NCBI GenBank assembly: GCA_963575745.1
Contig: CAUYUJ010000204.1
Span: forward strand, 62,001-116,892
Length of the DNA: 54,892 nucleotides
Reading direction: 5' to 3'
Source: Prorocentrum cordatum
Lineage: Eukaryota
The position numbers and the translations under genes were made by a program. Of this stretch, positions 1-54,715 are shown one piece after another (positions within the stretch are counted from its first letter, which is position 1; each line of letters begins with the position of its first letter). The notes under the pieces are model-generated. The model did no database searches and was not told the DNA's origin. It saw nothing but the letters and a program-made list of their open reading frames with translations.

Positions 1-2610
1 CCGAGGGAAGTCGGAACAGAGACATCCTCACAACAATTTGATGGTCCGGGCCGTTTCGCTTGAAACATCCTCACAACTCTCGTTTCTGAGTTGGCCGGGA
101 TTGGCCGTTTCGCTTGAGACATCCTCGAAAAGTTGCGCTCCGGGACGCCGCGCGAGAGGTGGTCCGGGCCGTTTCGCTTGAGACGTCCTCAAAATTCTGA
201 GCCCCGAGGTGCCGTGCGAGAGGAGGTCCGGGCCGTTTCGCCTGAGACATCCTCGAAGCTCTGAGCTCCGATATGCCTTGCGCGAGGTGGTCCGGCCCGT
301 TTCGCCTAAGACATCCTCGAAATTCTAACCTCGGAGATGCCGCGCAAGAGGTGGTCCGGCCCGTTTCGCCTGAGACATCTTCGAACTTCTGAGCTCTGAG
401 ATGCCCTGCGCGAGGTTGTCCGGCGCGTCTCGCCTGACACATCCTCGCAACTGTGAGCTCTGAGATGCTGTGCGCAAGGTGGTCCGGCCTGTTTCGCACA
501 AAACATTCTCGCAACTCTGAGCTCCCAGATGCCGCGCAAGAGGTGGTCCAGCCTGGGGGCCCAGAAGACCACATGTTACATATCCTCCCAGGACCCTGGG
601 AGCCCGCCTGAGACATCCTCGAACTTCTGAGCTCTGAGATGCCCTGCGCGAGGTGGTCTGGCCCGTTTCGCACAAGACATTCTCGCAACTCTGAGCTCTG
701 AGATGCCGTGCGCAAGGTGGTCCGGCCCGTTTCGCAAAAGACATTCTCGCAACTCTGAGCTCCCAGATGCCGCGCAACAAGGTGGTCCAGCCTGGGGGCC
801 CAGAAGACCACATGTTACATATCCTCCCTGGGACCCTGGGAGCCCAAGGAGGTCCCAGAGAGCTCCAGGAGGCCGCAGGACGCCCAGGACAGGCCCCAGG
901 GGTCCCCTGGAGATTTCCAGGAGGCTCCCAGGAGGCCCCAGGAGGCCCTCTATCAGAACGTGTCAAGTTAATACACATCCGGTGTCGATTCGTTGATTTT
1001 TCCCGCTCTTGTGCCCCCCTGTCCTAGATATCACTGGGAGCCCCAAGAGCCTTCAGGAAACCCCAGGTGGAGTTCAGGAGGCCACAGGAGGCCCAGGAGG
1101 AAGCCCCAGGAGGTCCCCTGGAGGCCCCAGGAGCACCAGGAGGCACCAGGAGGCCCCCGCAACTCGGAGCTCTGAGACGCCGCGCTCGAGGTGGTTCGGC
1201 CCGTTTTGCTTGAGACTTCCTCGTAGCACGTTTCGCCCGAGACACCGGCCCGTCTCGCCTGAGACATCCTCGCAATTCTGAGCTTTGAGATGCCGCGCGC
1301 AAGTTGGTCCAGCTCGTTTCGCACAAGACAGTCTCGCAACTCTGAGCTCCCAGATGCCGCGCAAGAGGTGGTCCAGCCTGGGGGCCCAGACCACATGTTA
1401 CATATCCTCCCTTGGACCCTGGGGGCCCCAGGAGGCCCCAGAGAGCTTCAGGAAGCCGCAGGACGCCCAGGACAGGCCCCAGGGGGGAGTAGGAGATTCC
1501 CAGGAGGCCCCCAGGAGGCCCCAGGAGGCTCCCTATCAGAACGTGTCCAATTAATACACATCCGGTGTCGATTCGTTGATTTTTCCTGCTCCTGCGGCCC
1601 CCCCCCATTTTGGAGAGCCCCGACGGCCACATGTTAGATATCCCCCCCTGGGAGCCCCAAGGGGCTTCAGGAAGCCCAAGGTGGGGTCCAGGAGGCCACG
1701 GGAGGCCCAGGAGGAAGCCCCAGGAGGTCACCAGGAGGTCCCACGAGGCCCCAGGAGGCCCCCGCAACGGAGCTCTGAGACGCCGCGCTCGAGGTGGTCT
1801 GGCCCGTTTCGCCTGGGACTTCCTCGCAGCACGTTTCGCCCGAGACATCGTCGCAACTCTGGGGTCCGAAATGCCGCGCGCAAGGTGGTCCAGCCCGTTA
1901 CGCTGGAGACATCCTCGCAACTCTGGGCTCCGAGATGCCCTGCGCGAGGTGGTCCAGCCCATTTCGCCTGAGACATCCTCGCAACTCTGAGCTCTGAGAT
2001 GCCGTGCACAAGGTGGTCCGGCCCGTTTCGCACAAGACATTCTCGCAACTCTGTGCTCTCAGATGCTGCGCAGTAGGTGGTCCAGCCTGGGGGCCCAGAA
2101 GACCACGTGTTACATGTCCCCTCTGGGGCCCTGGGAGCCCAGGACAGGCCCCAGGGGGGGGCAGGAGATTCCCAGGAGGCCCCCAGGAGGCCCCAGGAGG
2201 CCCCCTTATCAGAACGTGTCAAATTAATACACATCCGGTGTCGATTCGTTGATTTTTCCTGCTCTTGTGCCCCCCCCCTCCATTTTGGGGGGCCCCGACG
2301 GCCACGTGTTAGATATCCCCCCCCTGGGAGCCCCAAGAGGCTTCAGGAAGCCCCATGTGGGGTCCAGGAGGCCACGGTAGGCCCAGGAGGAAGCCCCAGG
2401 AGGTCACCAGGAGGTCCCACGAGGCCCCCGCAACTCGGAGCTCTGAGACGCCGCGCTCGAGGTGGTCTGGCCCGTTTCGCCTGAGACTTCCTCGCAGCAC
2501 GTTTCGCCCGAGACGTCGTCGCAACTCTGGGGTCCGAAATGCCGCGCGCGAGGAGGTCCAGCCCGTTACGCTGGAGACATCTTCGCAACTCTGGGCTCCG
2601 AGATGCCGTT
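1..2610. repeat. Complex satellite: 64-bp subunits inside a ~580-670 bp higher-order repeat
   Basis: CCGTTTCGC recurs at 169, 233, 297, 361 (period 64). The marker TATCAGAACGTGTC..TTAATACACATCCGGTGTCGATTCGTTG recurs at 951, 1534, 2207. Confidence 0.9.
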
Positions 2611-9761: not shown

Positions 9762-13845
<4,084 letters not shown>

Positions 13846-25996: not shown

Positions 25997-26154
25997 CCTC
26001 CTCCTCCTCCTCCTCCTCCTCCCCCTCCTCCTCCTCCTCCTCCTCCTCCTCCTCCTCCTCCTCCTCCTCCTCCTCCTCCTCCTCCTCCCTCCTTCTCCCC
26101 CTCCTCCTCCTCCTCCTCCTCCTCCTCCTCCTCCTCCTCCTCCTCCTCCTCCTC
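25997..26154. repeat. (CCT)n microsatellite, right flank of the LINE
   Basis: Seen directly. Confidence 0.95.
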
Positions 26155-30728: not shown

Positions 30729-31208
30729 TACCTAACAGCGAAGACTGATAGGTTTCTAATGGTCCCAAAAGAATGCATCTTGACTCCTCAGGGGGGTCTG
30801 GACAGATGCCAGACGGGTGCCAGGGAGAATCCGCGGAAGTCGTTTTAAGCAAACAGTTACACACTTCGTGGTCTTCGAGGTCCCAGAACTCTTTTCCTGG
30901 GCATGTTTTTGAATGCCCGGAGCCAATTGTAGGCCACTTAGTGGTCTTCGAATTCCCAGAACTCCATTCCTGGGCATGATTTCGAATGCTCGGAGCCAAC
31001 TGTAGGCCATTTCGTGGTTTTCGAGTTCCCACAATTCCATTCCTGGACATGATTCTGAATGCCCGGAGCCAACTCTAGGCCACTTCGTGGTTTTCGAATA
31101 CCCGAAACTCCATTCTCGGGCATGATTTTGAATGCTCGGAGCCAACTGTAGGCCACTTCGTGTTTTTCGAGTTCCCAGAAATCTACTCCTGGGCCACATT
31201 TTGAATGC
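30727..31208. mobile_element. Non-autonomous element with hairpin end and internal 73-bp tandem array, copy 1
   Basis: Begins TTTACCTAACAGCGAAGACTGATAGGTTTCTA, identical to 54100. 73-bp units at 30862, 30935, 31008, 31081, 31154. Confidence 0.7.
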
Positions 31209-32560
31209 TGAGGCAGGCTGATGCTGAGGCTGAGGCAGGCTGAGGCTGAGGCAGGCTGAGGCTGAGGCTGAAGGCAGACTGAGTTTGAGGCTGAGGCTGA
31301 GGCTGAGGCTGAGGCTGAGGCAGGCTGAGGCTGAGGCTGAGGCAGGCTGATGCTGAGGCAGAGGCTGAGGCAGAGGCTGAGGCTGAGGCAGGCTGACGCT
31401 GAGGCAGGCTGAGGCTGAGGCCGAGGCTGAAGGCAGACTGAGGCTGAGGCTGAAGCAGGCTGAGGCTGAGGCTGAGGCAGGCTGAGGCTGAGGCTGAGGC
31501 AGAGGCTGAGGCTGAGGCTGAGGCTGAGGCTGAGGCTGAGGCTGAGGCTGAGGCTGAGGCTGAGGCTGAGGCTGAGGCTGAGGCTGAGGCTGAGGCTGAG
31601 GCTGAGGCTGAGGCTGAGGCTGAAGCTGAGGCTGAGGCTGAGGCTGAGGCTGAGGCTGAGGCAGGCTGAGGCTGAGGCAGGCTGAGGCTGAGGCCGAGGC
31701 TGAAGGCAGACTGAGGCTGAGGCTGAAGCAGGCTGAGGCTGAGGCTGAGGCAGGCTGAGGCTGAGGCTGAGGCAGGCTGAGGCAGAGGCAGGCTGATGCA
31801 GGCTGAGGCTGAGGCAGGCTGAGGCTGAGGCCGAGGCTGAAGGCAGGCTGAGGCTGAGGCTGAGGCTGAGGCTGAGGCTGAGGCTGAGGCAGGCTGAGGC
31901 TGAGGCTGAGGCTGAGGCTGAGGCTGAGGCAGGCTGAGGCAGAGGCCGAGGCTGAAGGCAGACTGAGGCTGAGGCTGAAGCAGGCTGAGGAGGCTGAGGC
32001 AGGCTGAGGCTGAGGCAGGCTGCTGAGGGCTGAGGCTGAGGCTGAGGCTGAGGCTGAGGCTGAGGCTGAGGCTGAGGCTGAGGCTGAGGCTGAGGCTGAG
32101 GCTGAGGCTGAGGCTGAGGCTGAGGCTGAGGCTGAGGCTGAGGCTGAGGCAGGCTGAGGCTGAGGCTGAGGCTGAGGCTGAGGCTGAGGCTGAGGCTGAG
32201 GCAGGCTGAGGCTGAGGCTGAGGCAGGCTGATGCTGAGGCAGGCTGAGGCTGAGGCTGAGGCTGATGCAGGCTGAGGCTGAGGCAGGCTGAGGCTGAGGC
32301 CGAGGCTGAAGGCAGACTGAGGCTGAGGCTGAAGCAGGCTGAGGCTGAGGCTGAGGCAGGCTGAGGCTGAGGCTGAGGCAGGCTGATGCTGAGGCAGGCT
32401 GAGGCTGAGGCTGAGGCTGATGCAGGCTGAGGCTGAGGCAGGCTGAGGCTGAGGCCGAGGCTGAAGGCAGACTGAGGCTGAGGCTGAAGCAGGCTGAGGC
32501 TGAGGCTGAGGCAGGCTGAGGCTGAGGCTGAGGCTGAGGCTGAGGCTGAGGCTGAGGCTG
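31207..32560. repeat. ~1.35 kb (GAGGCT)n hexamer satellite
   Basis: Seen directly, with recurring variant blocks. Confidence 0.97.
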
Positions 32561-33150
32561 ACTGGGACTGCCGTTGCCACTGCGACTGTCATCGCGAATG
32601 CGACTACGACTGCGAGAACAGCAGAATTCTACAGCTGGATTCTCATCTGAATCTTAAGGGGAATGCTTCCAGATATGCTCCTACACATCGCTGTTAGGTT
32701 GCTTTGCCGGGATAAGCTTTTCCTGCTGCCTAGTCGCGGCCCGACTAGTGTTCGGACGGCTTTCGACCCGCCTCGCGAGCCTGTTGACCAAAAGTATCCC
32801 CACCATCACGGCGTTCGACTCGTTTCGCGCGGCCGCGTACCAAAAAGTTCCCACCAGCTTTGCCTGTGGCACAGCCTGTCCCTGCATGCCCGACGTTCGA
32901 CTCGTTTCGCGCGCCCGCGCACCAACAACTATCCCTACCGGCCTTCGCTATTTTCCCCTTATTTCGGCGCGGCCCGCCTTAGCTTGCACGGCGTTCGACT
33001 CGTCTTCGCGCGCCCACGTACCACAAGTATCCCCACCGGCCCATCCAGAAACGATGTATGGGGGAGCATGCAGATGAACAAAGGGCGGATGAAACCGTCA
33101 CATACCTCAAGAGGGGGAGGATGGAGTCGTCGTCGTCGTCGTCGTCGACG

Positions 33151-41830: not shown

Positions 41831-44027
41831 CATGGCCTCCACAGCCCTCGCAGACTTCATACACCTAAGGAACAGTTATAACGGGATCTCATGTAAGATC
41901 AAAACAGACTCTGGTAGGGCTTTTTCTCCGGTATCATTCTTGACCATTTTTGAATATTGTTTGCTGGGCAATTTTTGATTTTTCGTCCAAAATCCCGCTG
42001 TGGGGGGACATGCCCGACCTAATCTTAGGCCCGCCAGAGAATGTTCTCAGAACCTTTTATGGGGCCGGCGAGTGGTAGACCAGAAACATTTCCGCCGTCG
42101 GGGGCAGGCGTCCCTGACGGTGGACACGAATATTTCGTACCGTTATTCGCCCGCTACACCTTGCTTGGTCTGCGCGACCTGTTCTCAGAACATTTTTGGC
42201 TGCGACTGTTTTGTTTTAGCACACCGGGGTGATTGTTCGAAGAACACGGTTTTTTGCTCTCAGAGCAGTCTTGTCTTCTGAGAACATTTCGTGGTAGGAC
42301 CACAGGAATGCCGGGACGGTCGGTCTCTGCTCAACAGGGGGGAGGCCGTTCCAACCACCATCCGACCCCTCTGGGCGCTGAGGGCTCCATCCGAGGGGGG
42401 CAGGAGGGGGCGGAGGAGGAGGAGGAGGGTGCGGGGGAGGAGGAGGAGGAGGAAGAGGAGAAGGAGGAGGAGGCGGAGGAGGAGGCGGAGGATGAGGAAT
42501 TCAGTTCTTTCGTGGGCGGCCCCCTTGGGCCCCTGAAGCGGCGCCAGGTGAGGCCGGGAGCGGCGAGAAGCTTCGGCTTGGCCGCCCGGAGAGGAGGGGG
42601 CGGGTTTTCCCAGAAGGCTTCGAAGGCCGCGGGCCCCCCTCCCTCGTTTGATTTTTTTTATGCATCTCGCACTGCATGCTGTTCAGACGCACCGGATTCT
42701 GGAGGCCACGGCCTCGCCCACCTGGTCTTAGCTAGGCCCAGACTCTGTCCGAAGCGGTGGTCGTTCGCTCTTTCGTTTGCTCGAAGCCCTCGCGCCTTCC
42801 GAGAAGGGCCTGCTCCTCCTAGCTTCCCCCTAAGGGCGCGCTGCCGAGAGGCCGTTCGCGCGCTTTTGTTGTGTGCCCCAGGGGGGCACGTCTGTGGCGG
42901 GGTTGCACAAGGTGTCTCTGGCTCAGTCCTGAGATCTGGGTGTTGATACATTTTGTTCCCAGACGTTCTCGCCCCAGATTCGGGCCCCGGGACCCTCACA
43001 GTTCGCTCGGGCTCGAGACATGGCGCTGAAAGATGGGGTCCGGGCCTCCTTCTTGTTCTGGGGGCGATGTTGCAGTTTCTCTACAACTTGCGATTTGATG
43101 GAAGGTGCTCCCCGTCTTTCGCTCTGTATCGGGGCCCCTGGGGCCCCCCTGGGCCTCGCGAGGGGTATGCCTCGGAGGGGCTTCCTGGGAAATCCTGGGG
43201 CCTCCCTGGGCCCGGAAGAGGAGATGGAGGATGATCGACAAGAAGGTCCGAGGAGGATGAGGAGGAGGACAACCCATGAGGCAGATCTACTCCTTCCTTC
43301 TTCCATCGTACCCTCTTCTCCCTGCTCTCCCTCCAATTCATCCCTTCTCTCCCTCCTCTTCCTCCTGATTACCCTCCATCTTTTTTCCTCCTCTAGAGTC
43401 CTTCTGGATAGTAACCTTTTCATCCCCCTCACCCTTCCACGCCTTCCTTCCATTCATATTTCTCCCCTCTCGCTCCCCCCCCGCCTCATCATGACTCTTC
43501 TCTTCCTCTTCCTTCCCCCTTCCGCTTCCTCTGTCCCCTCTTCCTTCGCTTCCTTCCCCCCTCTTCCCTCGCTCCCTCCTCCTCATCCCCGTCCCTTCTG
43601 CACCTCCTCCGCCTCGTCGGCCTTGCCCTCGTCGTCGTCCTCTCGCATGTCGCCGCTGCTCAGGTGGCTTTTTGCACCGCGCCCGCGGCGGGCATCGTCG
43701 CGTGCGCGAGATCAAGCAGGATCCGTCGGGGGACCAAGGGTACAGCAGCAGGACGGAAAAAATTGAGTATTGCGGATGAGGGAAGGAGGGGGAGGAGGAG
43801 AGGAGAAGGAGGAGGAGGGACGATGATGGGGGAATAGGAGGCGAAGGAAGGATTGCGACGACGACGACGACGACGGCGACGGCGATGACGACGACGACGA
43901 TGACGATGGTGACGGCGACGGCGATGACGACGACGACGGTGGTGGTGGTGACGATGATGATACTGTTCAATGTACAGTTCAGCGTACGAGGGTATGGCGA
44001 AGAAGGAACGAGTGGCGAGACGGCTTC

Positions 44028-44049
44028 TCCGTAGCTGTTTGGGTTCAAG
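44028..44049 (+). other. Spliced-leader relic inside repeat A1
   Basis: TCCGTAGCTGTTTGGGTTCAAG is 18/22 identical, ungapped, to TCCGTAGCCATTTTGGCTCAAG. A weaker copy (15/22) lies at 51126-51147. Confidence 0.7.
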
Positions 44050-44639
44050 TGGCCGGAACCCGCCTCGGCGGCTCTGGAGTAGCCGACGCAGGGTTGCTGA
44101 GGCAGCGCGCGGCGGGCGATGGTCGAAGTCCAGGGTCCGCCCCGCGGGGTGTTGGTGTTTCGGGGCAAGAGGCGGGCGCGCAGGCGCTCGGAGCCGGCGC
44201 CAGTGAGCGCGCCCGCCTGGAGTCCAGAACCCCGCGGGGCGAAGGGCCGTGGGCTCAAGCGTGGACCCCGCGGGGGCCGAGCGCCATGGTCAGCGAGAGA
44301 CCGGCGTCCGCGAACCTTCGGCGGCGCAGGACGCCACCGCGAGTCTGGCGTCTCATGCTGCAGGCAAGGCTTGCGGCGGCCGAATTCTCCAGAGCCACTG
44401 CCCTGGCGAAGCCGGCCAATATGGCCAGGAAGGGCGAGTCCGAGCGTGTTGCGGTGGTCGAGGCAACTGCGCGGCGCAGGCCTCGCGGCCTGCGGGCCAG
44501 TGCAAGCAGCCAGGGCAGGACAAAACCGAGGGCGTCGCGGGCACCGCTGGCGAGGGGGAAGAGGCGCCCGCGGGGCGGCAAGAAGGCTACGCAGAGGGCC
44601 CCGCGAGATTGTCCAGACCCCCGTGGGGGGTTGCCTGGG

Positions 44640-45870
44640 CCATGAGTGGCGGTGGGCGACAAGGAGTGGTATACCCCCCTCGTGGTGGTCAAGGCGGGCG
44701 ACGTGATCGATGTGCAGAGCGAGGTGAACGGCAATGCCCGCCATGTCCTCGTGGTGGCAGACGGCGAGTCGTTCGCTGTCGACGGCAAGGGCGGCGCCTT
44801 CCTCGAGGCTGTCTTCGTCGAGGTCGTGGGGGGCGCAAGCGTCAACTATCTGAACCGCCCCCTGCAAGGAGATGAGGGCAAGGGGCTACTACATTTCTGC
44901 GACGAGGCCGCGGTAGAGTGCCGGGTGGAGAGCCCCGACGCGTGCCGCGAGCTGGCACGCGTCGACTCGTGCCGGGTGGGGCCAGACATCAAGCCGACCT
45001 TCGGAGCCCCGGCGCCTCCGCCGAGCGAGAAGGGCGATGCCTCGAAGGCGGGCCTCGCAGACGGGGCGGCTCCCCTTCGACGAAGATGACGATGGGCTGC
45101 TCCCGTTGCCTCACCCAGCCTTCCCACCTCATGGGGTCAGGAGGCCCGACCCTGAGAGGCGGCTTGTGGGGCTCGGGCAGAGGATCGGCCGCTCCGAGCC
45201 CAGGGGGCTCGAAGCGAGGTGTTCGCGGCGCCGGTGGCGCGAGTGCAGGCCAAGTGATGGCCAAGAGGGCCGGGCGACGCCGCGAGAAGCCGCGGGGGGC
45301 CCCGCCCGAGGGCTACTTGCGCCCAAGTTCTGGGGGGGGGCGTCAGGCCACCGCCGCTGGCGGGAGACTGGGAAGATGCGACCGACGCCAAGTCTAGTTC
45401 TCGCCTGGCCCGTCTTCGGGCGCGCGAGGATTTTGCACCGTTCGTTTGCCGATTTCGGGGCAGCTTCTGCAGCTGGCGATCGAGGATCTCAAGCGCTCCC
45501 TGGGCGTCCGAGGAGGGCCCTCCACGTCGGGTCAGATCCCATCAGGGGCGATGTTCCTCTTGTGCCTTGCGACCGTGATCCGCACGCAGTACTCCCAGCG
45601 ACGCTGGGCGAGAGAGGTCGCGAAATTAGGGCCCTCGGCGAGACTTTGGGCGCTATCCTCTTCGATGGCCTGCTGAGGGTAGCCGACCCGTGCGCGCAGC
45701 GGTTCAAGAGCCGCGAGGTCAGGGCCCAGGGCGGCAGCGCTCGCCTCGCCGCGCCGGGCGAGCTAATTCCTCGGCGCCCGATCGGTCTCGCAGGTCCGTC
45801 GGAGCAGATGCTGGTCGGCCAGCTGGAATCGCAGAGAGCGAAACTCACAGAGATTGAGCAGTCGTCCAAG
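44640..45870 (+). pseudogene. gag-like ORF remnant of the YR element
   Basis: Coding-like segments (LLHFCDEAAVEC; GQLLQLAIEDLKRSLG; REIRALGETLGAILFDGLLRVADPCAQRFKS, QRFK at 45697) lie upstream of RT. Identity is inferred largely from position. Confidence 0.5.
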
Positions 45871-46949
45871 ATGGCCGAACGGCCCTCCGGCTCGTGGGTT
45901 GGGGGCCTCGCGGAGGCGCAGCCCGAGGCGACCCGTCGGACCAACGCGGCAGCGAAGTGGGGGGCTCGGCGTCGAGCGCCCAGCGATCGCCGCCCCTTGC
46001 TTCCAGATCTTGCTGGGGCGGAAGCGGATTAGCCCGATGGGGGCGTGGGCGATGGCGAGGGGCGTGCGGGGGGGTCAACGGGGCGAGGAGGAAGCCCTTC
46101 CGCCGCTTGCGAAGGAGAAGTACAAGTACCCGAGGGGGGCATCCGCGTCGCCCCCGCCCCCTCGGCCAGAGCCTCAGAGGAAGGCGATGCTGAGTCCTCC
46201 GACCAGAGCCCAGGGCGCGGCAGGGTGGGGGTGCGCAAAGGAGGGCGCGCAAGAGAAGCTTGCCGCGCCGACGCTGCCGCGCCCATGGGACCAGGGTTCG
46301 GGGCAGGGCTACCCGCGGCAGGAGGGCTTCAGGACGGCTCGATGATGATCGCCGCCAGGGTCGCCGACCCGTCGGGCCTCGCAGAGATCAGTTTCGCTGC
46401 TCAGAGGCGGATAATGGGAGGGGGGCCCTGTGACAGTCGCCAGGGTACCTCGCTCGAGGAGCTCTGCCGCCGCGAGGCCCCGCTCGTCGTCGGTGCAATG
46501 CGCCTTCGAGGCGGCGATCTCGGGCCACTTGTCGGGCGGGAGGGCGAAGTCCCCGACGTTCTCGAGCGCTGCCTTCGCCGCGGGACGGCAGTGGTCGACT
46601 GCCTCCGGTGCCCCGCAGTTCTCGCGTGGCGGGGGCCCCGCCTCGATCTGGGCCCGTGTGATGAGCTCGCGCATGGCGCTGGACACCGTGGCGGCATCCT
46701 ACCGCGTGACCTACTGTGTCGCGTGGTCGCTGCCCCGTCTCGATCACAGGTGGACGGCCGCGTCCTCCATGTGCTGGACAGCCTCCTGCTGGGCGGCGGC
46801 GTAACGAGGGGCGTTGGGGGTGCCGAGCTTGGCCGCGAAACTGCTGTCCGAGTGATCGCCGGTGGTCAGCAGTGCCTGCTGGCAAATCCAAGCGCCTGCC
46901 CCTGCCTTCCACCAGGAAGCCAGCCGCTCGTCTACGCCGCATACCTTCT

Positions 46950-48030
46950 GGCTCTGTTCTGGGCCTTCAGATGCCCGAAGAGCTCCACAATGTTTTTGCC
47001 ATCGTTAGACAGGGGGGAGCGGCAGGGCGTCTCGCCGACGCTCGGCGTTCTCGACCGCGCGGCGCGCTTCGTCGAACGCCCGGCGCGCCTCCTCACCCAG
47101 CCTAGTGTCGGACAGGAGGGCCATCCGCGAGATGGGCGGATGTTTCACTCACCCCTCGTGGAAGACGTGATGTTGCACCCCTCATGGAAGACGAGGTGGC
47201 CTTGTTCGCGGGTGCGACATTTCTGTCTGCTTCCACGCCTGCAGCCTTCCTCCCCAGTGGTGGGGGTGGTTTGCTCTCTCCAAATCGCGCAGGTCGTTTG
47301 GGCCCGACGGCGGTGCAGAAAGGGTTCGGGTGCGTGACGGTGATCCCGATGGGCTGGCTCTCCGCTGTCGGGGTGGCCCAGCGCGTGATGACCTACAGAT
47401 CTCTGCCGATGGCCTGGCGAGGTGCGCCCAGCTGGATGCGAGCCAGGGGTCGAGACGCGACGCGCCGTTCCCCGCGTGGAAGGCAGCCTGGCCAGCTTTG
47501 GTGTTGGAGCAAGTGCGTGGATGAATCCGAGTAGACAGTCTACTGAGGCCGTCGATGTCGCTGCGTATCCGACCGCCGGGAGGTCTTGAGGGGCGCGCTG
47601 GCGTCGGTGCAGGCGCCCATGTCGGTCCAGAAGGGCGTGGTTTGGTCACCTTTCGCACTTCGGAGGGGGGTCGAGGTGGGCGGCCCGGCGGGGGGCCCCC
47701 GCCCATCGGGCGTCTGCTGGGGCATGTGGGTCTGGCGGCCTGGCCTGGCTACTCGTCCAGGCTGACGTGTCTCTCGTGGGGGTGCAGTCCGTATGCGGGC
47801 TCTGGGTGTCCAACCTCACGTTGCGGCGGCAGGCCCACCAGCTGCCTCGATGAGGCGCGGCGTTGCGGCGCTTGCCTTCGCGGAGGGCGGCGCTGGGCAT
47901 GCGCGAGTACGACGAGTTTGTCACGTGCGTGATGGTCGCCCCCGTGCTGGCCAGCGACGCGCGCGGTCCGCTGGACTGCCGCCCTATCGCTTCCGATGCA
48001 TCGGGGCGGGGGGGCGGCGCGTCCGTCGGA
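46950..48030 (+). pseudogene. RT and RNase H N-terminal remnants of the YR element
   Basis: VIPMGWLSAVGVAQ (PMGW 47346-47357), CVDE at the YxDD position (47514-47525), IASDASGRGGG (SDAS 47992-48003). Confidence 0.78.
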
Positions 48031-48104
48031 ACTCACCTCGCGGAGGGCGGGGTGCAGGCAGCGCTGCTGTGTTCATCGGTGCCCGAGGCGCTGCGCGACC
48101 AGGG

Positions 48105-48176
48105 GGGCGACGCCGCCGAGTTCTGCGGGGGCGTCCGCGGGCCCAGGATGAGTTTGGACCCCCTCGGCGCGCAAGT

Positions 48177-48218
<42 letters not shown>

Positions 48219-48945
48219 CAGGCTGCGCAGAGACCAGCAAGGGTAGTTCAGGGTCGCTTCCCACGACGTCCCCGTTATCGACATTTGCGAGAACGTGGCC
48301 TCGTGGAGTTTGCAGGGCGCAGTGGTGATGTCTGAGGCCCGGGTCCGCCAGCCGCTGTGCATCGACTCCGTGGGGGTCTCGGAGTTTTCGCAACCTCGGC
48401 AGTGCTGGCCGAACTTCGCGATCGTGGAGACGGATGGCGTCCAAGTCACCGCGGGCGACGTCGTTGAACTCGTCGAGCTGGTGGCTCCGCCGGAGCCGAA
48501 GGAAATGCAGCTCGACGAAGGCCGATCGCGGGCAGCGCCGCCAGAACAGCCCCTGCCGACAATTCCTCGGGCGACCCCTCGCATGCTGCCAGGGCGTGGC
48601 CCATGAGGCGCCGAAGGGTGCGATGCCATCGCTCTCGAGCACTAGTCGAAAGATTGGCACAGGGTTCCCCCGTAGCAGTTCTTGCCGCAGTACCGCGTCG
48701 AGGTGACCGCCGAGGGCGATGAGGCGTACTGCGTGGAGCCAGGGACTTGGGCTCTCAGCTCGTGCCCAGTGGTGGCGCCAGCCGGGCGTGATCTGCTGAT
48801 GGGCTACTTGCCAGGCTACGCGCTCGGCGGTGAGCGGGGGCTGAACAAGCTCCCTCCCCTGGATTCGCGTGAGCTCGAGGCTGGGCGGTGCCCGCGGCTT
48901 GGCAGCGAATTCCACGCTGCGGTCGTGTCGCGGTTGGTGGGTCTG
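48105..48945 (+). pseudogene. Dnmt3-like cytosine methyltransferase remnant
   Basis: EFCGGVRGPRMSLDPLG (motif I, 48118), ENVASW..MSEARVRQPLCIDSVGVSEFSQPRQCWPN (motifs VI-VIII, ENV 48289), RDLLMGYLPGYA (IX), RCPRLGSEFHAAVVSRL (X). Motif IV (PC) not found. Confidence 0.8.
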
Positions 48946-49139
48946 GGGGCCCACGGCGCTGCCCCCCTGGAGCAGGCGCCGACTCCCGAGGCCGTCCAGC
49001 GCGTCTTCTATGAGTGCGCGGTGAAGCGGAAGGCCTTTCAGCTGGACCAGCAGAGGCTCGACCGCGATCTCATGGCGAAGCAGAGGTTCGGGGCGCTAGC
49101 CCAGCGCCCTTCTGAGCGCAGCTTTGATGCGCTCATGGG

Positions 49140-49550
49140 CATCATGATGCTGGGGCTGTTCCGCCGTGCGGACAGTCGGGGGAGAGACGCTCGTCATGCC
49201 TCCGGGCTGCCCTGCCGTTGCAAAACCTGGTCGAGGGTCAGCGTGGATCAGAGGCGTTGGCTGTGGCACTACGTGGTGGTCATGAAGTTCCATTGGTCCC
49301 GGCGCTGGAGCTGCAGGTGCTGCGCAGCGCCTTTCGGTGTAATGCTCTGCCTCGAGGCCCTCGGCTCGAGGGCGTGCATGTTCGCGGATTTCCCGGGTGG
49401 CCGTCGCCGTCGCTGCGAAAGGCCCCCCTTTCGTCGAAGCGCCTTAACGCCGCTTTGTGCCGCCTCGGCGCGCTCTGCCTCGGTGCCTTCAGCGCCCCGC
49501 TCTCCGTGCGCACTGTGCGGCGAATGACCTCGCCGACGCTCCGTGCCGCG
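49140..49550 (+). pseudogene. RNase H C-terminal remnant of the YR element
   Basis: RRADSRGRDAR..W.R.SVD..W.W followed by ALELQ..AFR..SSKRLNAALCRL, consistent with the E-helix and later part of a DIRS-type RNase H. Confidence 0.55.
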
Positions 49551-49599
49551 CGCCATGGGCCCCGAGAGGATGAGGGCCGTCGGCGCCGCGGGCGCATCG

Positions 49600-50423
49600 C
49601 AAGGCAGCGAGGGCAGTGCTGGGCAGACTGGGCGACGCTGTTCTAGCCGAGGGAGTGCTGAAGGAGTGCCCCGAATTTGCGCGCCGCTTCTTCCCGTGGG
49701 CGTTCAGACGCCCCGAGCCGCCCTGCAACGTTGATCTCGGCAGGCTGGACCAGCTGTGCTCCGAGAGCGACGATGATTTGCGGGGTGATGGCGAGCCGGA
49801 AGGTTGGGCTGCCTGCGCTCTCGCAGCCGCCCGGTATTTTCCCCCAAGCGCGAGGCGTCCTTTGCCGTCGGCGCGACGCTTTAAGTCGGCTGCTGGCAAG
49901 CTGGAGTTGCCCGAGCGAGCATCGCCAATCACGCCGGGTGCGGCGTTGGCGCTCGCGGGGGTGATTGTTCAAGTGGGGCGCCCGCGATCGGCGGTCGCCG
50001 TGGCCGCGGGCTCTCACTGCGTGCAGGTCTTCGCGATCCGCGAGCGCGACATCGCAATTGCGAGGACAGGTAAAAGTTCCGTTGCCAATCACCAGCACAC
50101 CAGCAGCGGTCAGAGGCTGAATCAACATGATATGGTTAGCTTTGACGACGCGAACTCGGTGGGTTGGCTCTCCAAGACCCTCCAGGGGTTCCTGCCAGAA
50201 GATTGGTTGGTGGCGCAGGTCCTCTCAGTCCTTCTGCAGCCTCTTCTATAGGTCTCTGCGGGTTCTTCAGCTTTCGTCGTTTGGGTTCAAGCCGTGCAGT
50301 CTGTTGAGAGGAGGGGCCACTCACCATTGCCGTTTTCTGGCTGATATCACCCCGGCAGTCCTCCTGGGGCGATGGGCCAACATCAAGACGGCCCGAAATT
50401 GTATCGCCGATGCTTTCTGGTGA
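49600..50423 (+). pseudogene. Tyrosine recombinase remnant
   Basis: ELPERASPI upstream, then GFKPCSLLRGGAT (decayed H/YSLRRGGAT, 50283), LLGRW (50367) and KTARNCI, with TGT at the expected catalytic Tyr (50400). Confidence 0.82.
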
Positions 50424-51624
50424 ATTGTCAGGAGTACGAGTTCTTCAGCAAACGGCTGGAAGCCACCAGAATATTCAAGGCACTTGCGGCAACAGCGGAT
50501 CGTTCACCATCCTAGGGAAGTGTGGGGTCTGTGTTTTCGCTGTTCCTGAGGTGTGTCTTGACTGGGGCGTCTTCAGTTTTTTTCTTGGGCATGTGCTTCA
50601 TCGTGAGGGGCGTCCTAGTTGGCGTCCAGTTGAGGAGCATGCGGCTCGTTAGCCAGGCAGAGAAGGGAACGCTGCAGCGTGTCACTGGCGTCTCAGAGAA
50701 GTGCCGCGTTTACCCGGAGGGTCAGTGGACCCCGATGGCGCCCAAATCTCGCCGCAGGCGAGGACGTCCGCGCATCCCGTGCGACCCAGTGATCGCGGCC
50801 CGACGGGCACGGCCGACCTGGGGTGCACTAGCTGGTAGCCTATCTACATTGGAAGATGTGTGTAAACATAGCCTCCGAGGTATGAGTGAGGCGCAACCGA
50901 TCTTGTTAGGAATATGTGTGTAAACATTTCCTGTGAGGTATGACGTAGGCGCAACAGTGAATGCGAGGTTGTATCCGACCTCAGTGGTTGGGTGCGTGAG
51001 CCTGGCGGCCACCGCGCGCGCATTACGCTTTGGCGCGCGTCTGTCGAGAAAACGGCCGCCGTCATGAATGCGTAGGTCAGCGTGCGGAAGTATGGCGGGA
51101 ACACAACGATGAGCGCGACGGCTTCTCCGTAGCTGTTGGGGCCCAGTAGCCGGGCCCTGGAATGCCTCCGAAGCCATGTCGCTGTCGACTTGGCCTTGAG
51201 ACATGTGGCTCGACAGTGTCCCGTCTCGTTGCTGGGGAACTCAGACGTGCCCCGCTCGCGGAGAGAGTGTGTCCCTGGTTTCTCAGAGACTGGCCCTGGA
51301 GGGCCGCTCTGGCCCAGAGGCGTTGTGGACCGCAGTGGCGCCCATCCCTCGTCGCAGGCGAGGATGCCCGTGTATCCCTCGCGATCCAGTGATCGCGGCT
51401 TGACTGGGCACGGCAGATCTTGTGCGCGGTAGGTCATAGTCTAGCTACTTCGCAATGTGTGTGTGTGTGTGTCTTTGTGTGTATATAGAGCTTCTGACGT
51501 ATGAAGTAGGCGCAATTCCGACCTTGAGGATGTAGCCGGCCTCAGTGGTTGGGAACGTGATTCTGGTACCCAACGCACGCGCATGACGCTCTTGTGCGCG
51601 TCTGTCGATAAAACGGGCCGCTGG

Positions 51625-51700
51625 GATGATGCTGATGGTGATGATAATTCGGATGTTGACGATATGATGACAATGATTGTAATGATGATGGTGGTGGTAG

Positions 51701-51762
<62 letters not shown>

Positions 51763-51835
51763 TTGCTGGTGGTAGTGATGACGATGTTGCTGCCATACTG
51801 GTGGTGGTGATGGCCATGATGGGCTTGATGATGGG
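51625..51835. repeat. (GAT)n microsatellite, right flank of the YR element
   Basis: Seen directly. A related GAC/GAT tract lies at 43855-43961. Confidence 0.92.
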
Positions 51836-51880
51836 TATGAATCCTGTTCCCTACTTGCCACGCTCTCATTGTTATATACA

Positions 51881-51921
<41 letters not shown>

Positions 51922-53976
51922 CATGTCAGCATTCTTGAGTTTGGGTCTCTTGTTGTTCGCTTGATTATTTTGCCTCCTCCCCTCCTAACCTCCCTTCTCT
52001 TTCATATTTCCCCGTGCTTTAGGTCATTCATCTTCATATCCGCACCAACAGGCATTCATTTAGACTCACACTCCGACTCGCCCATGCCAAGACTCACGTA
52101 TTGACGGATTCGCTCACACTCAGAAACATGCTCAGGTGCTCATATTCATACATATTTACATTCAGGTACACCAGTGGCCAGTCATTCATATCTTTGCATA
52201 CAGAGACCAACTCACTGTTCGTCAGACCCCACTGTCGTCGCCATGTCGGTGGCATGGCGCTCGGGCCTACCAAGTGACACGCGCCAGTGGATGTACCATG
52301 GACCAGTTCGCGCCCGCGTTGTCGGGACCTCGGCTAGACGCTTCAATCTGGGGAATCGACTCTTCTCAGTTCAGAGCCCCACGGTCCTCTCGATGTTGCC
52401 GGCATGGCGTATCGGCCTCCTACTCGGGGATGCGCCAGGGGCATATCACGAGCCCCCTCTCGCTTAGATTGGCGGGAACCCTTGGGTAACAGTTTTTTTG
52501 GGGGGCGGGGGGGGGGGCGTTTCTTTTTCAGCCCAGTGGCTACGCGATGTAGCACGCATAGCATTCGGTCCGCATCAGTGCTTCGATGATCCTCTGGCTG
52601 TGTGTTAGCCCAATGTGTGTTTACCCCGTTTGGCCTTCGTCGGCCATCGTTGCACCACCTGCGTCGTATTGAAGGGCTTCGATGGACCAGCACACGTTGG
52701 CGCTGACACACGTTCTGAGGGTCATCGAGTCTTACTCATCAGTGGCGCCCGCATTCGAACCATGCCGCCCAAACCCGATCCCAGCCACGCAGCCAGGGAC
52801 AGTGCGGAAGCGTTCGGCCTAGGAATTTTGGCAGGAGTTGGATCGCATGAGCCTGTGGAAGGGACATGGGCCATCCTTAGTACAGAAAAGGTCAACTGTT
52901 GTCTGCACCCTCCTGTATACCATTTCAGTCTCCCTGGGGCTGCCGTCAATCGTGCGATCGGCCTTTGACAGAGAAGGGGGCATTTCAGTGTTGGAGCCCA
53001 CAGGATAATATCGAAGCGTTCAAGTCTGGCGTGTCGGCTGTTTGTTCTTCTCGTCTGGATCAGCGCTGCCGTTTCCACTTCGCAGGCGAGCTCGACGAGA
53101 TCGGGGACGGCAACGTCGGGCCGAGAGGGTGCAGATGCGAGGCCAGGCCCCTGCACCAGCAAACGTCCGCAAGTTCGCAAGAGAGAGCGTGACAGACGTT
53201 GTTTAGGCCTCCAGCGTCTCGGAAGAGTCGTGCCGATGGTTTTCCACAATTTTCGGCGCCTTGAGGCCGTGTTCAGCCCCAGGGACACCAACGAAAACCA
53301 TCCGGGATTACAGACCGTGGGGCCGAGAGGTCTAGAAGCCCGCGTGGTGGAACCATCAAGACATCCAAGGGCCAAGGATGGTGACATCGAAATTCGGTCA
53401 TATGTGTGTGTGTGTGTGTGATGCTTCAAGCCCTGTCCGTCTCCTTCCCCTCCCTTGCATGCTGGGCAATTCGTTTCTCGGTGTCCCCGTTTAGCTCTAT
53501 CGCCGGTGCAGTCATTCTGCCTCGCCGCCGACGGAAGGAAAAGCGTTTGCGTGTGTGTGTGTGATGCTTCTGGCTTGACGGAACGCGCTGGAGCCATCAT
53601 GCTGAGCAAGTCGAGCATCGGGCCGCGGCGTCAGGATTCCTTTCCTTCATGGCGAGGGCCTCGAGGGAGGAGGACGCGGGGGAGGAGGAGGAGGAGGAGG
53701 AGGAGGAGGAGGAGGAGGAAGAGAAGGAGGAGGAGGAGGACGAGGAGGAGGTGGAGGAGGCAAAGAGACAAGGCACCCCAGAGGCAAATGTGGGCTTTTG
53801 CTCGTCGTTTGGCCTCGGCGTCGGCGGGCGCGCGCACGCGTGCACGGAGAGGAGATTGCCCGCCTCCGCAAGAGGAGACGTTTAGGTCTTCGGTGCGGAG
53901 GGCCTCAGAGCTGCGCGCAGACAGGGAGACCAGCTTGTGCAAGTCGAAGAAGAAAAAAAGCTATGAACATAAACTT

Positions 53977-54099: not shown

Positions 54100-54715
54100 T
54101 TTACCTAACAGCGAAGACTGATAGGTTTCTAGTGGGATCAAAAGAGAGCAGCAGATCACTCCACAGGGGGGTCCGGGCAGGTGTTGGGAGTTGCCGGGCG
54201 GCAGGTGCCGGGCTCGTTTTTCACCAACAGTCACACACTTCGTGCTCTTCGACTTCCCAGAACTCCATTCCCAGGCCACATTCTGAATACCCGGATGCAA
54301 CAGTCACACACTTCGTGCTCTTCGAGATCCCAGAACGCCATTCCCGGGCCACATTCCGGATGCAACAGTCACACACTTCGTGCTCTTCGAGTCCCAGAAC
54401 GCCATTCCCGGGCCACATTTGAAGGGCCGGATGCAACAGTCACACACTTCGTGCTCTTCGAGTTCCCAGAACTCCATTCCCGGGCCACATTTTGAATGCC
54501 CGGAGCCAACTGTAGGCCACTTCGTGCTCTTCGACTTCCCAGAACTCCATTCCCGGGCCACATTTTGAATGCCCGGAGCCAACTGTAGGCCACTTCGTGC
54601 TCTTCGAGTTCCCAGAACTCCATTCCCGGGCCACATTTTGAATGCCCGGAGCCAACTGTAGGCAACTTCGTGCTCTTCGAGTTCCCAGAACTCCCATTCC
54701 TGGGCAACATTTTCA
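54100..54715. mobile_element. Non-autonomous element with hairpin end and internal 73-bp tandem array, copy 2
   Basis: Same 32-nt terminus as 30727 and the same array unit CACTTCGTGCTCTTCGAGTTCCCAGAACTCCATTCCCGGGCCACATTTTGAATGCCCGGAGCCAACTGTAGGC. Confidence 0.7.

What the first reader, a model, noticed from the sequence alone, without database searches (positions are those of the whole stretch)
43965..51622. Tyrosine-recombinase retrotransposon with a Dnmt3-like domain nested in its RNase H region
Seen: the order gag-like, RT (PMGW), RNase H start (SDAS), DNMT motifs I, VI-VIII, IX, X, RNase H remainder, YR. The ENVAS...P.CIDS..VS...PR..W.N stretch parallels Dnmt3 ENV...P.MIDA..VS...RARYFW.N. 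Established: DIRS-Dnmt3 elements are known from Symbiodiniaceae, while most DIRS1 elements carry an adenine-MTase-like domain instead. Inference: the DNMT splits the RNase H domain.
Basis: partly seen in the sequence, partly recalled or inferred. Interest (0 to 1): 0.78.

Follow-up and report, generated by a model that had tools for sequence, protein, structure and literature searches.

The report
Dead DIRS retrotransposon with nested DNMT
This is a decayed copy of a dinoflagellate-type jumping gene whose DNA-methylating enzyme sits inside its RNase H domain; the family is already described, and the nested layout is a detail I did not find stated in the text I could read.

Summary
Window 43967-51629 is a 7.66-kb retroelement with split direct repeats A1-internal-B1-A2-B2, the arrangement published for SymbioDIRS-Dnmt3 (PMC5890265). 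Its own translation hits nothing in Pfam or PDB. A read-through of 47854-49527 finds 143 relatives. Of the 42 scanned, 34 carry PF00145, and the named ones are from Fugacium and Cladocopium. A profile of 41 relatives matches 47740-48195 (E 6.5e-19) and 48253-49296 (E 8.5e-44), and it matches DNMT3A/3B best in PDB (E 1e-34).

The split of RNase H is supported. DNMT-less relatives have the two flanks 13 residues apart. A full RNase H1 chain superposes on a DNMT-bearing model across residues 45..608, with the DNMT3-like domain at 88..429.

The window copy is dead:
- DNMT motifs II-V, including the catalytic PC motif, are replaced by (GT)n.
- There are 4 in-frame stops and several frameshifts.
- The pol segment 46432-47115 is inverted.
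- The repeats have diverged.

Verdict: a new, decayed member of a known family. The nested architecture applies to the whole family and seems unreported in the text I could read.

The parts
43967..44086 (+). Repeat A1, the 5' terminal repeat. It holds a spliced-leader-like 22-mer at 44028-44049.
   Evidence: Matches A2 at 51065-51189 (BLAST 43976-44056 vs 51074-51153, 75%; MAFFT). The 22-mer matches the dinoflagellate spliced leader at 18 of 22 positions. It is the only site with 6 or fewer mismatches on either strand of the window.
44871..44978 (+). Weak match to the N-terminal ('gag-like') conserved motif of Symbiodiniaceae relatives.
   Evidence: A profile of the N-termini of P0022 and P0063 matches at E 0.001 over 37 residues. 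P0022 residues 98-211 match 44841-45182 at E 2.3e-4. Tentative.
46432..47115 (-). Inverted segment of pol, the region upstream of the RT core.
   Evidence: Profile of 21 long relatives, positions 370-615, on the minus strand: E 1.1e-11, 31.7 bits. A4 profile positions 44-172 match 46821->46432 at E 2.8e-10. Six single relatives also match there.
47204..47693 (+). Reverse transcriptase remnant, with PMGW at 47346-47357, YxDD decayed to CVDE, and one frameshift at 47287/47295.
   Evidence: A4 profile positions 247-274 match 47204-47287 (E 0.0022) and positions 284-412 match 47310-47693 (E 1.2e-8). P0054 residues 124-252 match at E 2.9e-7.
47740..48117 (+). Connection region and RNase H N-part (strands beta1-beta2). 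The first catalytic Asp is kept in IASDASGRGGGASVG at 47986-48030.
   Evidence: A4 profile positions 428-579 match 47740-48195 at E 6.5e-19. P0003 residues 79-229 match at 48% identity. The homologous strands are beta1-beta2 of the RNase H fold in both models.
48118..48927 (+). Dnmt3-type C5-DNMT remnant. Motif I is at 48118-48141. (GT)n at 48175-48216 stands in place of motifs II-V. ENV is at 48283-48303, motif VIII (QPRQCW) at 48391-48408, motif IX at 48784-48819 and motif X (GSEFH) at 48898-48927. There are in-frame stops at 48244, 48604, 48643 and 48673.
   Evidence: A4 profile positions 665-986 match 48253-49296 at E 8.5e-44. Profile positions 580-664 have no counterpart. P0003 residues 230-319 are missing between 48174 and 48250. 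Motif coordinates come and stop positions.
49162..49553 (+). Conserved linker (RRADSRGRDARH) and the rest of RNase H. The W-x-W strand is at 49252-49296. After a frameshift come LELQ (Glu kept), SSKRLN and TSPT (the last two acidic residues are lost).
   Evidence: The end of the A4 match reaches 49296. P0004 residues 3-171 match 48784-49290 at 46% identity. A4 positions 1035-1074 match 49431-49553 only at E 0.1.
49595..50420 (+). Tyrosine-recombinase ORF remnant, with a frameshift between 50212 and 50280. CSLLRGGAT and GRW are kept. The nucleophile Tyr position reads Cys (ARNCI).
   Evidence: The L001 YR ORF matches 49595-50212 (residues 15-220, E 7.5e-14) and 50280-50420 (residues 242-288, E 0.0095). 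The tail of P0051 and of P0105 also match (E 7.7e-8, 4.4e-6, 1.9e-10).
50619..51064 (+). Repeat B1.
   Evidence: BLAST 50676-51067 vs 51266-51629, 66% over 404 columns, E 1.8e-31. MAFFT.
51065..51189 (+). Repeat A2.
51190..51629 (+). Repeat B2, the 3' end of the element.

Best explanation
Window 43967-51629 is an old, dead insertion of a DIRS-like (tyrosine-recombinase) retrotransposon of the SymbioDIRS-Dnmt3 kind.

How intact family members are built:
- They encode an N-terminal gag-like ORF or part, a Pol and a separate or fused tyrosine recombinase.
- These lie between split direct repeats arranged A-coding-B-A-B.
- Pol reads RT, connection, RNase H strands beta1-beta2, a Dnmt3-type C5 cytosine methyltransferase of about 375 residues, a conserved linker, then the rest of RNase H.
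- The methyltransferase is a domain inserted into a loop of RNase H between beta2 and beta3. DNMT-less relatives already carry a helical insert of about 65 residues at that place. Both folds are predicted to stay whole.

Shown here: the homology, the domain order, the insertion point, the predicted folds and the decay of this copy.

Inferred:
- The element's RNA is copied by RT and the RNA strand is removed by RNase H.
- The nested DNMT methylates CpGs of the nascent cDNA. This is the proposal of de Mendoza et al. 2018. The nesting would place the DNMT beside the RNase H site.
- The recombinase inserts a circular cDNA whose junction is rebuilt from the A/B repeats.

State of the window copy, which can do none of this:
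- It lacks DNMT motifs II-V.
- It has 4 in-frame stops within 47854-49527.
- It needs at least 5 frame changes between 47204 and 50420. At least one of them may be a natural ORF boundary.
- It has lost the RT YxDD, two RNase H acidic residues and the recombinase tyrosine.
- At least 684 bp of pol is inverted.
For: Repeats A1/A2 and B1/B2 are arranged A-internal-B-A-B. This is the arrangement quoted for SymbioDIRS-Dnmt3 in the legend of Fig. 1e and in the peer-review file of PMC5890265.

Relatives:
- There are 143 relatives at E<=1e-3, of which 17 are at <=1e-10.
- 34 of the 42 scanned carry PF00145 at E<=1e-3, and 32 of them score above the 22-bit cut-off.
- All 6 relatives that carry a source name, out of the 20 looked up, are Fugacium kawagutii or Cladocopium sp..

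Profile matches to the window are E 8.5e-44, 6.5e-19 and 1.2e-8, and E 7.5e-14 for the YR.

Dnmt3 affinity is shown.

Order of motifs in the 21 long relatives: [ST]DA[SC] lies before the DNMT motifs in 20 of 21, and IN..E[LM] lies after them in 15 of 21.

Nesting:
- P0054, P0092 and P0113 have the two flanks 0-10 residues apart in the phmmer map.
- By BLASTP, P0113 98-129 and 143-292 match P0065 40-71 and 459-606.
- The RNase H1 fold in the DNMT-less model scores Z 12.5, rmsd 2.5, with 130 of 140 residues aligned over 103..299.
- In the DNMT-bearing model it scores Z 13.1, rmsd 2.3, with 121 of 133 aligned over 45..608. DNMT3B matches at 88..429.

The intact relative L001 has a 5'-open ORF, a pol of 1200 aa and a YR of 312 aa in the same order.
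Against: - No Pfam or PDB hit for any of the 112 stop-to-stop pieces or the 2 read-throughs of the window itself. All domain calls are by transitivity through relatives.
- The recombinase ORF of relatives reaches only sub-threshold Pfam scores (17.6 and 14.2 bits against a cut-off of 27.1) and has no PDB sequence hit.
- The folds are AlphaFold2 predictions, not structures. The alignment of DNMT-less relatives has only 20 rows and a mean pLDDT of 72.7.
- The RNase H C-part of the window is barely detectable (E 0.1).
- The gag-like call is marginal.
- The host is unknown. The element's GC of 67% is unlike the roughly 54% of the ORF-bearing part of the window. It is only 23-30% identical to the named Symbiodiniaceae proteins.
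Confidence: 0.88

Rival explanations
1. The RNase H is not really split. On this reading the upstream TDAS..GxG segment belongs to the connection region, the functional RNase H lies wholly downstream of the DNMT, and the reassembly is an AlphaFold artefact driven by co-evolution signals from DNMT-less homologues.
For: The only structural evidence is predicted models. Ranges such as 45..608 give only the first and last aligned residue. No Pfam RNase_H hit was obtained for any relative scanned.
Against: 121 of 133 residues of an RNase H1 chain align at rmsd 2.3. The part after the DNMT (505-608) has only about 104 residues, so strands from 45-67 must be included. The upstream segment carries the first catalytic Asp, and none is found downstream before the Glu helix. 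pLDDT is 90-96 for both parts. In the DNMT-less model, residue 1 of the solved chain aligns at the TDAS strand.
Confidence: 0.07
2. The minus-strand pol segment at 46432-47115 is not an inversion within one copy. It would instead be a fragment of a second copy inserted in reverse, or an assembly error.
For: No inverted repeats mark the breakpoints. The left breakpoint is undefined, and about 74 profile positions between the inverted piece and the RT core were not found on either strand. Short contigs of run X1 cover only parts of the element, and the run may be the source of the assembly.
Against: The inverted piece carries pol positions 44-172, whose counterpart was not found on the + strand, and it lies directly beside the point where the + strand resumes. 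That fits one inversion. An X1 contig is identical over 47136-47455, next to the right junction.
Confidence: 0.25
3. The DNMT-like stretch is a fragment of a host Dnmt3 gene, or an independent insertion that happens to lie inside a DNMT-less DIRS element in this window only.
For: The window copy is rearranged and a microsatellite interrupts the DNMT.
Against: The same order and the same junctions occur in relatives from at least two named genera and in many unnamed contigs. P0003, the closest relative (48-54% identity), runs uninterrupted from RT through the RNase H N-part into the DNMT.
Confidence: 0.02
4. The motif resemblances are chance products of long open frames in 68-70% GC DNA.
For: Long ORFs occur in all six frames. 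There are no direct Pfam or PDB hits. The 434-aa ORF at 46033-47337 has no relatives.
Against: E-values go down to 2.1e-37 against 1.84 billion proteins and to 8.5e-44 for the profile. The matches are collinear with relatives over 2.7 kb, and the repeats frame the element.
Confidence: 0.01

Closest known systems
SymbioDIRS-Dnmt3 retrotransposons of Symbiodiniaceae (de Mendoza et al. 2018, PMC5890265)
   Same: The repeat arrangement is A-coding-B-A-B. A Dnmt3-clade DNMT lies in the Pol ORF with RT and RNase H, and there is a tyrosine-recombinase ORF. The named relatives found here are Fugacium kawagutii and Cladocopium proteins.
   Different: This copy is dead and partly inverted. It is 67% GC and only 23-30% identical to the named proteins. 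Its closest relatives (46-54% identity) are unnamed short contigs. The paper's text as I read it speaks of 'distinct orders of domains' and does not say that the DNMT interrupts the RNase H fold. I could not see its figures or its main supplementary file.
DIRS1 / PAT-like / Ngaro tyrosine-recombinase retrotransposons (Goodwin and Poulter 2004, cited in PMC5890265)
   Same: RT plus RNase H plus tyrosine recombinase, with no DDE integrase, and split or inverted terminal repeats in place of simple LTRs.
   Different: According to the paper's text, some DIRS elements carry a Dam-like adenine methyltransferase that is structurally unrelated to C5-DNMTs. From my own recall, not tested here, that domain follows RNase H and does not interrupt it.
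KnitGypsy-Dnmt3 of Klebsormidium nitens (same paper)
   Same: A Dnmt3-type DNMT captured into a retrotransposon Pol polyprotein.
   Different: It has a Gypsy backbone and was an independent acquisition. The position of its DNMT relative to RNase H was not examined here.
Cellular and retroviral type 1 RNase H (for example 4e19, 3u3g, HIV-1 RT)
   Same: The fold matches (Z 12.5-13.1). The acidic residues lie on beta1, helix A, beta4 and the last helix in relatives.
   Different: There is an insert of about 65 residues between beta2 and beta3 in DNMT-less relatives, enlarged to about 440 residues by the DNMT module in the family of this element.

Membership tests
DIRS-like (tyrosine-recombinase) retrotransposons | Reverse transcriptase and RNase H in one Pol | tested here: met
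   RT remnant at 47204-47693 (E 1.2e-8) and RNase H parts at 47740-48117 and 49162-49553, by homology to relatives. The RNase H fold of relatives scores Z 12.5 and 13.1. Pfam RVT_1 is seen in only 1 of the 42 relatives scanned, and below its cut-off (P0030). The paper says this RT is too divergent for Pfam.
DIRS-like (tyrosine-recombinase) retrotransposons | Tyrosine recombinase in place of a DDE integrase | tested here: inconclusive
   The window holds a homologue of the third ORF of relatives (E 7.5e-14) with RGGAT and GRW motifs. That ORF scores only 17.6 and 14.2 bits on PF00589, whose cut-off is 27.1. It has no PDB sequence hit. A language-model lead points to PF00589 clusters at 0.98. 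The paper annotates it as PF00589. No DDE integrase hit was found in any frame.
DIRS-like (tyrosine-recombinase) retrotransposons | Split direct repeats (A1-internal-B1-A2-B2) in place of plain LTRs | tested here: met
SymbioDIRS-Dnmt3 | C5-DNMT of the Dnmt3 clade inside the Pol ORF | tested here: met
   The window matches the profile of DNMT-bearing relatives at E 8.5e-44. That profile scores DNMT3A/3B at 117-122 bits against 23-55 bits for bacterial, Dnmt2 and DNMT1 chains. Structural Z is 28.6 and 27.3. I made no phylogeny of my own.
SymbioDIRS-Dnmt3 | Conserved catalytic DNMT residues (motif IV Pro-Cys, motif VI ENV) | tested here: not met
   ENV is present at 48283-48303. Motif IV and the rest of profile positions 580-664 are absent from the window copy. 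Relatives have them. So this copy is a dead member, not an active one.
SymbioDIRS-Dnmt3 | Host in Symbiodiniaceae | not testable with these tools
   No genome is held. Run and organism names are coded. A host ORF found no relatives. A spliced-leader-like 22-mer (18 of 22) in A1 points to a dinoflagellate host.
Type 1 RNase H | Four acidic active-site residues on the canonical fold | tested here: not met
   The window keeps the Asp of SDAS and the Glu of LELQ. It reads VRGF where relatives have L.DS and TSPT where they have NPAD. Relatives keep all four motifs.

The most novel reading that the evidence does not exclude
The Dnmt3 module of this retrotransposon family is a true domain-in-domain insertion into the beta2-beta3 loop of RNase H, within a 13-residue stretch of an older helical insert. 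The arrangement is shared by all DNMT-bearing relatives seen here and is not spelled out in the literature I could read. It would hold the methyltransferase beside the RNase H site, so that cDNA is methylated as the RNA template is removed. In addition, the window's GC-rich lineage, at 30% identity or less to Symbiodiniaceae copies, may show that the family extends to other dinoflagellates.
Probability: 0.4. Interest if true: 0.6.

Novelty: new member of a known kind. Interest (0 to 1): 0.45.

Why it matters
The element itself is a fossil and does nothing for the cell. Its value is as a pointer to the family.

- **Architecture.** A de novo-type cytosine methyltransferase has been captured inside the fold of RNase H, not appended to it. 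Both domains are predicted to stay intact. This is a concrete, testable architecture for the published idea that these elements methylate their own cDNA.
- **Construct design.** The DNMT-less relatives define the exact excision points for experiments.
- **Annotation.** Standard Pfam scans miss this family's RT, RNase H and recombinase entirely. Copies like this one will go unannotated unless family-specific profiles are used.
- **Host and life cycle.** The spliced-leader-like relic in the 5' repeat, if real, would tie the element's RNA to dinoflagellate trans-splicing.

Tried and rejected
- **Pfam on the window.** I scanned 112 stop-to-stop pieces from all six frames of 43.3-51.7 kb, plus 2 read-throughs with X at stops. 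There was no RT, RNase H, DNMT or integrase hit. This reflects decay plus a family too divergent for Pfam, not absence.
- **PDB on the window.** phmmer with the window pieces gave only chance hits.
- **ORF 46033-47337.** The search for homologous proteins on the 434-aa + strand ORF found nothing. That frame later proved to overlap, on the opposite strand, the inverted pol piece at 46432-47115.
- **Whole frames.** A call with whole frames was rejected because of stop codons. I then used stop-to-stop pieces and X read-throughs.
- **Genome and earlier notes.** No whole genome is held. There are no earlier notes of this scan.
- **Host identity.** ORF 21408-22433 found no relatives among longer proteins. 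Pfam on 79 of the 114 ORFs outside the element gave one clear domain, a RanBP2 zinc finger.
- **Sequencing runs.** No RNA holder is listed. Laying the contigs of 3 coded runs gave identical short pieces of X1 over 17 of 30 bins and no joints. The run may be the source of the assembly, so it neither confirms nor refutes the inversion. The uncovered parts prove nothing.
- **Recombinase tail.** PDB phmmer with the tail of P0051 gave nothing.
- **Related loci.** A single protein, P0134, then gave one locus, L001.
- **Time-out.** A MAFFT run timed out and was repeated with faster settings.
- **Inversion breakpoints.** A search for inverted repeats at the breakpoints found only short matches at chance level.
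- **Complex prediction.** Not used, because the structural superpositions already answered the question.

Full report
**What is at the coordinates**

The block 44000-50000 has 68-70% GC, against 53-62% on either side. A self-comparison of 43000-52500 found two pairs of direct repeats:
- 43976-44056 matches 51074-51153 at 75%.
- 50676-51067 matches 51266-51629 at 66% over 404 columns, E 1.8e-31.

MAFFT extends these to A1 43967-44086 / A2 51065-51189 and B1 ~50619-51064 / B2 ~51190-51629. The order is therefore A1, internal part, B1, A2, B2.

This is the arrangement that de Mendoza et al. 2018 (PMC5890265) give for SymbioDIRS-Dnmt3. The legend of their Fig. 1e reads 'A-coding region-B-A-B' (passages seen). 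Their peer-review file describes two A repeats flanking the ORFs and two B repeats flanking the 3' A repeat.

The element is thus 43967-51629. The flanks on both sides are (GAY)n microsatellites, at 43856-43960 and 51625-51786.

**Direct searches fail, relatives do not**

Direct searches with the window's own translation gave nothing:
- None of 112 stop-to-stop pieces from all six frames, nor two read-throughs with X at stops, hit any RT, RNase H, DNMT or integrase family in Pfam.
- phmmer against PDB gave only chance hits.

Frame 1 from 47854 to 49527 is one frame with four internal stops (P0001). A full HMMER search of 1.84 billion representatives with P0001 returned 143 proteins at E<=1e-3. 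Of these, 17 were at <=1e-10, and the best was 2.1e-37.

What the relatives are:
- I scanned 42 of the 143 with Pfam. 34 carry PF00145, the C-5 DNA methylase, at E<=1e-3. 32 of them score above the 22-bit cut-off. The hit always covers the N-terminal half of the profile and lies just upstream of the part that aligns to the window's ENV region.
- I looked up 20 relatives. The 6 with a source name are Fugacium kawagutii (P0022, P0051, P0105) or Cladocopium sp. Y103 (P0063, P0019), plus 'hypothetical protein' entries from metagenomes.
- The closest relatives (P0003, P0004, P0008; 46-54% identity) are unnamed short contigs.

**Mapping the window**

I built a profile from 41 DNMT-bearing relatives (A4) and searched it against the six frames of 43000-52500. 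It gave:

| Profile positions | Window | Strand | E-value | Content |
|---|---|---|---|---|
| 247-274 | 47204-47287 | + | 0.0022 | RT motif A region |
| 284-412 | 47310-47693 | + | 1.2e-8 | PMGW at 47346-47357; YxDD decayed to CVDE |
| 428-579 | 47740-48195 | + | 6.5e-19 | connection, RNase H start, DNMT motif I |
| 665-986 | 48253-49296 | + | 8.5e-44 | DNMT motifs VI-X, linker, first RNase H strand after the insert |
| 1035-1074 | 49431-49553 | + | 0.1 | RNase H end |

Profile positions 580-664 cover DNMT motifs II-V, including the catalytic Pro-Cys. They have no counterpart in the window. In their place are 57 nt holding the (GT)n run at 48175-48216. Against the closest relative, residues 230-319 of P0003 are missing between 48174 and 48250.

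Motif coordinates:

| Motif | Window residues | Coordinates |
|---|---|---|
| RNase H first Asp | IASDASGRGGGASVG | 47986-48030 |
| DNMT I | EFCGGVRG | 48118-48141 |
| DNMT VI | ICENVAS | 48283-48303 |
| DNMT VIII | QPRQCW | 48391-48408 |
| DNMT IX | GRDLLMGYLPGY | 48784-48819 |
| DNMT X | LGSEFHAAVV | 48898-48927 |
| Linker | RRADSRGRDARH | 49162 onward |
| RNase H strand | RRWLWHYVVVMKFHW | 49252-49296 |

After a frameshift, frame 0 reads ALELQVL..., SSKRLNAALCRLGALCL and TSPT, where relatives have HINxLEL, SSSxRLNRxLRR and NPAD.

**Recombinase**

- The Fugacium protein P0051 has a 313-residue tail after RNase H. It matches the window at 49589-50116 and 50220-50402 (E 7.7e-8 and 4.4e-6).
- A metagenome contig with an intact relative (L001, 6273 bp) has a 5'-open ORF, a 1200-aa pol and a 312-aa third ORF that overlaps the end of pol.
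- That third ORF matches the window at 49595-50212 (E 7.5e-14) and 50280-50420 (E 0.0095).
- The window keeps CSLLRGGAT and GRW. It reads ARNCI where relatives have AR(I/L)Y.

The assignment of this ORF to the tyrosine recombinases is weaker than the rest:
- Pfam PF00589 scores only 17.6 and 14.2 bits, against a cut-off of 27.1.
- There is no PDB sequence hit.
- A language-model look-up gives clusters with PF00589 at 0.98, which is only a lead.
- The paper annotates the ORF as PF00589.

**Is the DNMT of the Dnmt3 kind?**

The A4 profile against PDB sequences:

| PDB match | Bits | E-value |
|---|---|---|
| DNMT3A (2qrv_A) | 122.1 | 1.4e-34 |
| DNMT3B, DNMT3C | 115-117 | |
| plant DRM2 | 100 | |
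| prophage C5-MTase | 55 | |
| M.HhaI | 49 | |
| Dnmt2 | 47 | |
| DNMT1 | 23 | |

The AlphaFold2 model of the relative P0065 (608 aa, 41-row alignment, mean pLDDT 86.8) aligns as follows:
- DNMT3B 6u8p_A: Z 28.6, rmsd 2.9, 275 of 291 residues, model 88..429.
- DNMT3A: Z 27.3.
- M.MpeI 23.2, M.HhaI 20.8, DNMT1 17.1.

This agrees with the paper's tree, which I know from its text only. I made no tree of my own.

**Does the DNMT split RNase H?**

Three lines of evidence agree.

(1) Motif order. In 21 relatives of 1100 aa or more, [ST]DA[SC] lies between the RT motifs and DNMT motif I in 20 of 21. IN..E[LM] lies after DNMT motif X in 15 of 21. The misses are truncated or divergent rows.

(2) DNMT-less relatives.
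- Among the hits with both flanks detected (11 rows), P0054, P0092 and P0113 have the flanks 0-10 residues apart and no DNMT.
- P0054 also carries the RT (VIPMGW).
- P0146 and P0147 are further such proteins.
- BLASTP of P0113 against P0065 aligns 98-129 with 40-71 (E 2e-8) and 143-292 with 459-606 (E 4e-34). About 375 extra residues therefore sit within a 13-residue stretch.

(3) Folds.
- The model of P0113 (20-row alignment, mean pLDDT 72.7, core above 90) has this order: strands 102-112 (TDAS) and 116-125, helices 127-137 and 146-165, a disordered stretch, then strand 191-200, helix 208-224 and the rest.
- Aligned to about 48,000 PDB representatives, its 16 matches with Z of 8 or more are all RNase H or RT-RNase H chains. 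The best is 3u3g_D: Z 12.5, rmsd 2.5, 130 of 140 residues aligned, model 103..299, chain 1..140. Even without a DNMT, this RNase H has an insert of about 65 residues between beta2 and beta3.
- In the DNMT-bearing model, RNase H1 chains again align almost in full. 4e19_A scores Z 13.1, rmsd 2.3, 121 of 133 residues. 3u3g_D scores Z 12.7, 125 of 140. Both span model range 45..608.
- Only about 104 residues follow the DNMT module's linker, so the strands at 50-67 must be part of the superposed fold.

These are predictions, not structures.

**State of this copy**

Defects of the window copy:
- Loss of DNMT motifs II-V.
- Four in-frame stops within 47854-49527.
- Frame changes at about 47287/47295, 47693/47740, 49296/49299, 49553/49595 and 50212/50280. 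At least one of them may be a natural ORF boundary, as in L001.
- Loss of YxDD, of two RNase H acidic positions and of the recombinase Tyr.
- Repeat pairs only 66-79% identical.

In addition, the pol segment upstream of the RT core lies on the minus strand:
- Profile of 21 long relatives, positions 370-615, matches 47115->46432 at E 1.1e-11.
- A4 positions 44-172 match 46821->46432 at E 2.8e-10.
- Six single relatives match there too.
- About 74 profile positions between this piece and the + strand RT were found on neither strand.

I read this as an internal inversion whose right breakpoint lies in 47115-47204. A reversed fragment of a second copy, or a misassembly, is not excluded.

The 'gag-like' part rests on a 37-residue match at 44871-44978 (E 0.001).

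CpG observed/expected is 1.01 in the element, against 0.75 in 14-26 kb.

**Host**

- No genome is held, and run and organism names are coded.
- The 22-nt dinoflagellate spliced leader, recalled from memory and with its 21-nt core confirmed to stand in 28 papers (search listing only), has one site with 6 or fewer mismatches in the whole window. That site is 44028-44049, on the sense strand, inside repeat A1, matching 18 of 22 positions.
- By a simple binomial estimate of my own, about 0.004 such sites are expected. The test was post hoc.
- A2 has diverged at this place.
- This hints at a dinoflagellate host and at trans-spliced element RNA. It is a lead only.

**Known or new**

- The family is published (PMC5890265).
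- 'SymbioDIRS' occurs in only 2 papers of the library. The second, bioRxiv 10.64898/2026.05.21.726589, only cites the family (passages).
- In the passages and the peer-review file that I read, the DNMT is said to share the Pol ORF with RT and RNase H, and two structures with different domain orders are mentioned. I found no statement that the DNMT interrupts the RNase H fold.
- I could not see the figures or the main supplementary file (too large), which may show it.

I therefore file the element as a new, dead member of a known kind. The domain-in-domain layout is the one point that may be new.

Noticed in passing
44028-44049 (+), inside repeat A1: A 22-mer matches the dinoflagellate spliced leader at 18 of 22 positions. 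It is the only site with 6 or fewer mismatches on either strand of the 54.9-kb window. It may be a relic of trans-spliced element RNA and a hint at the host.
   Followed up: partly
43856-43960 and 51625-51786: The element is flanked on both sides by (GAC/GAT)n trinucleotide arrays, as if it had inserted into a microsatellite. No target-site duplication was looked for.
   Followed up: no
44100-50600 vs 14000-26000: The element has 67.7% GC and a CpG observed/expected ratio of 1.01. The ORF-bearing region at 14-26 kb has 54.5% GC and a ratio of 0.75. The fossil thus shows no CpG depletion, although its host family is reported to methylate CpG heavily.
   Followed up: no
9775-13846, gap at 8975-9074: There is a (GTA)n-type array of about 4 kb with strong G-over-C skew (0.6-0.77), next to a 100-N assembly gap.
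   Followed up: no
105-792, 1827-2087, 2895-5674, 15077-15556, 30862-31208, 54224-54713: There are several satellite arrays with periods of 64, 101 and 73 bp. The 73-bp units at 30862-31208 and 54224-54713 share a long core by eye. (GCTGAG)n fills 31207-32561.
   Followed up: no
17687-18064 (+), and + strand ORFs up to about 25544: An ORF with a RanBP2-type zinc finger (PF00641, E 3.7e-9) heads a run of + strand ORFs that have no Pfam hits. This may be a host gene. ORF 21408-22433 found no relatives.
   Followed up: partly
L001:4785-4812: In the intact metagenomic relative the recombinase ORF starts 28 nt before the stop of pol, in another frame. At least one of the window's frame changes may therefore be original and not decay.
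   Followed up: no
50851-50955 and B2 near 51480: Repeat B1 holds a tandem duplication of about 58 nt (50851-50897 and 50909-50955, 83% identical) that B2 lacks. Both copies carry short (GT)n runs.
   Followed up: no
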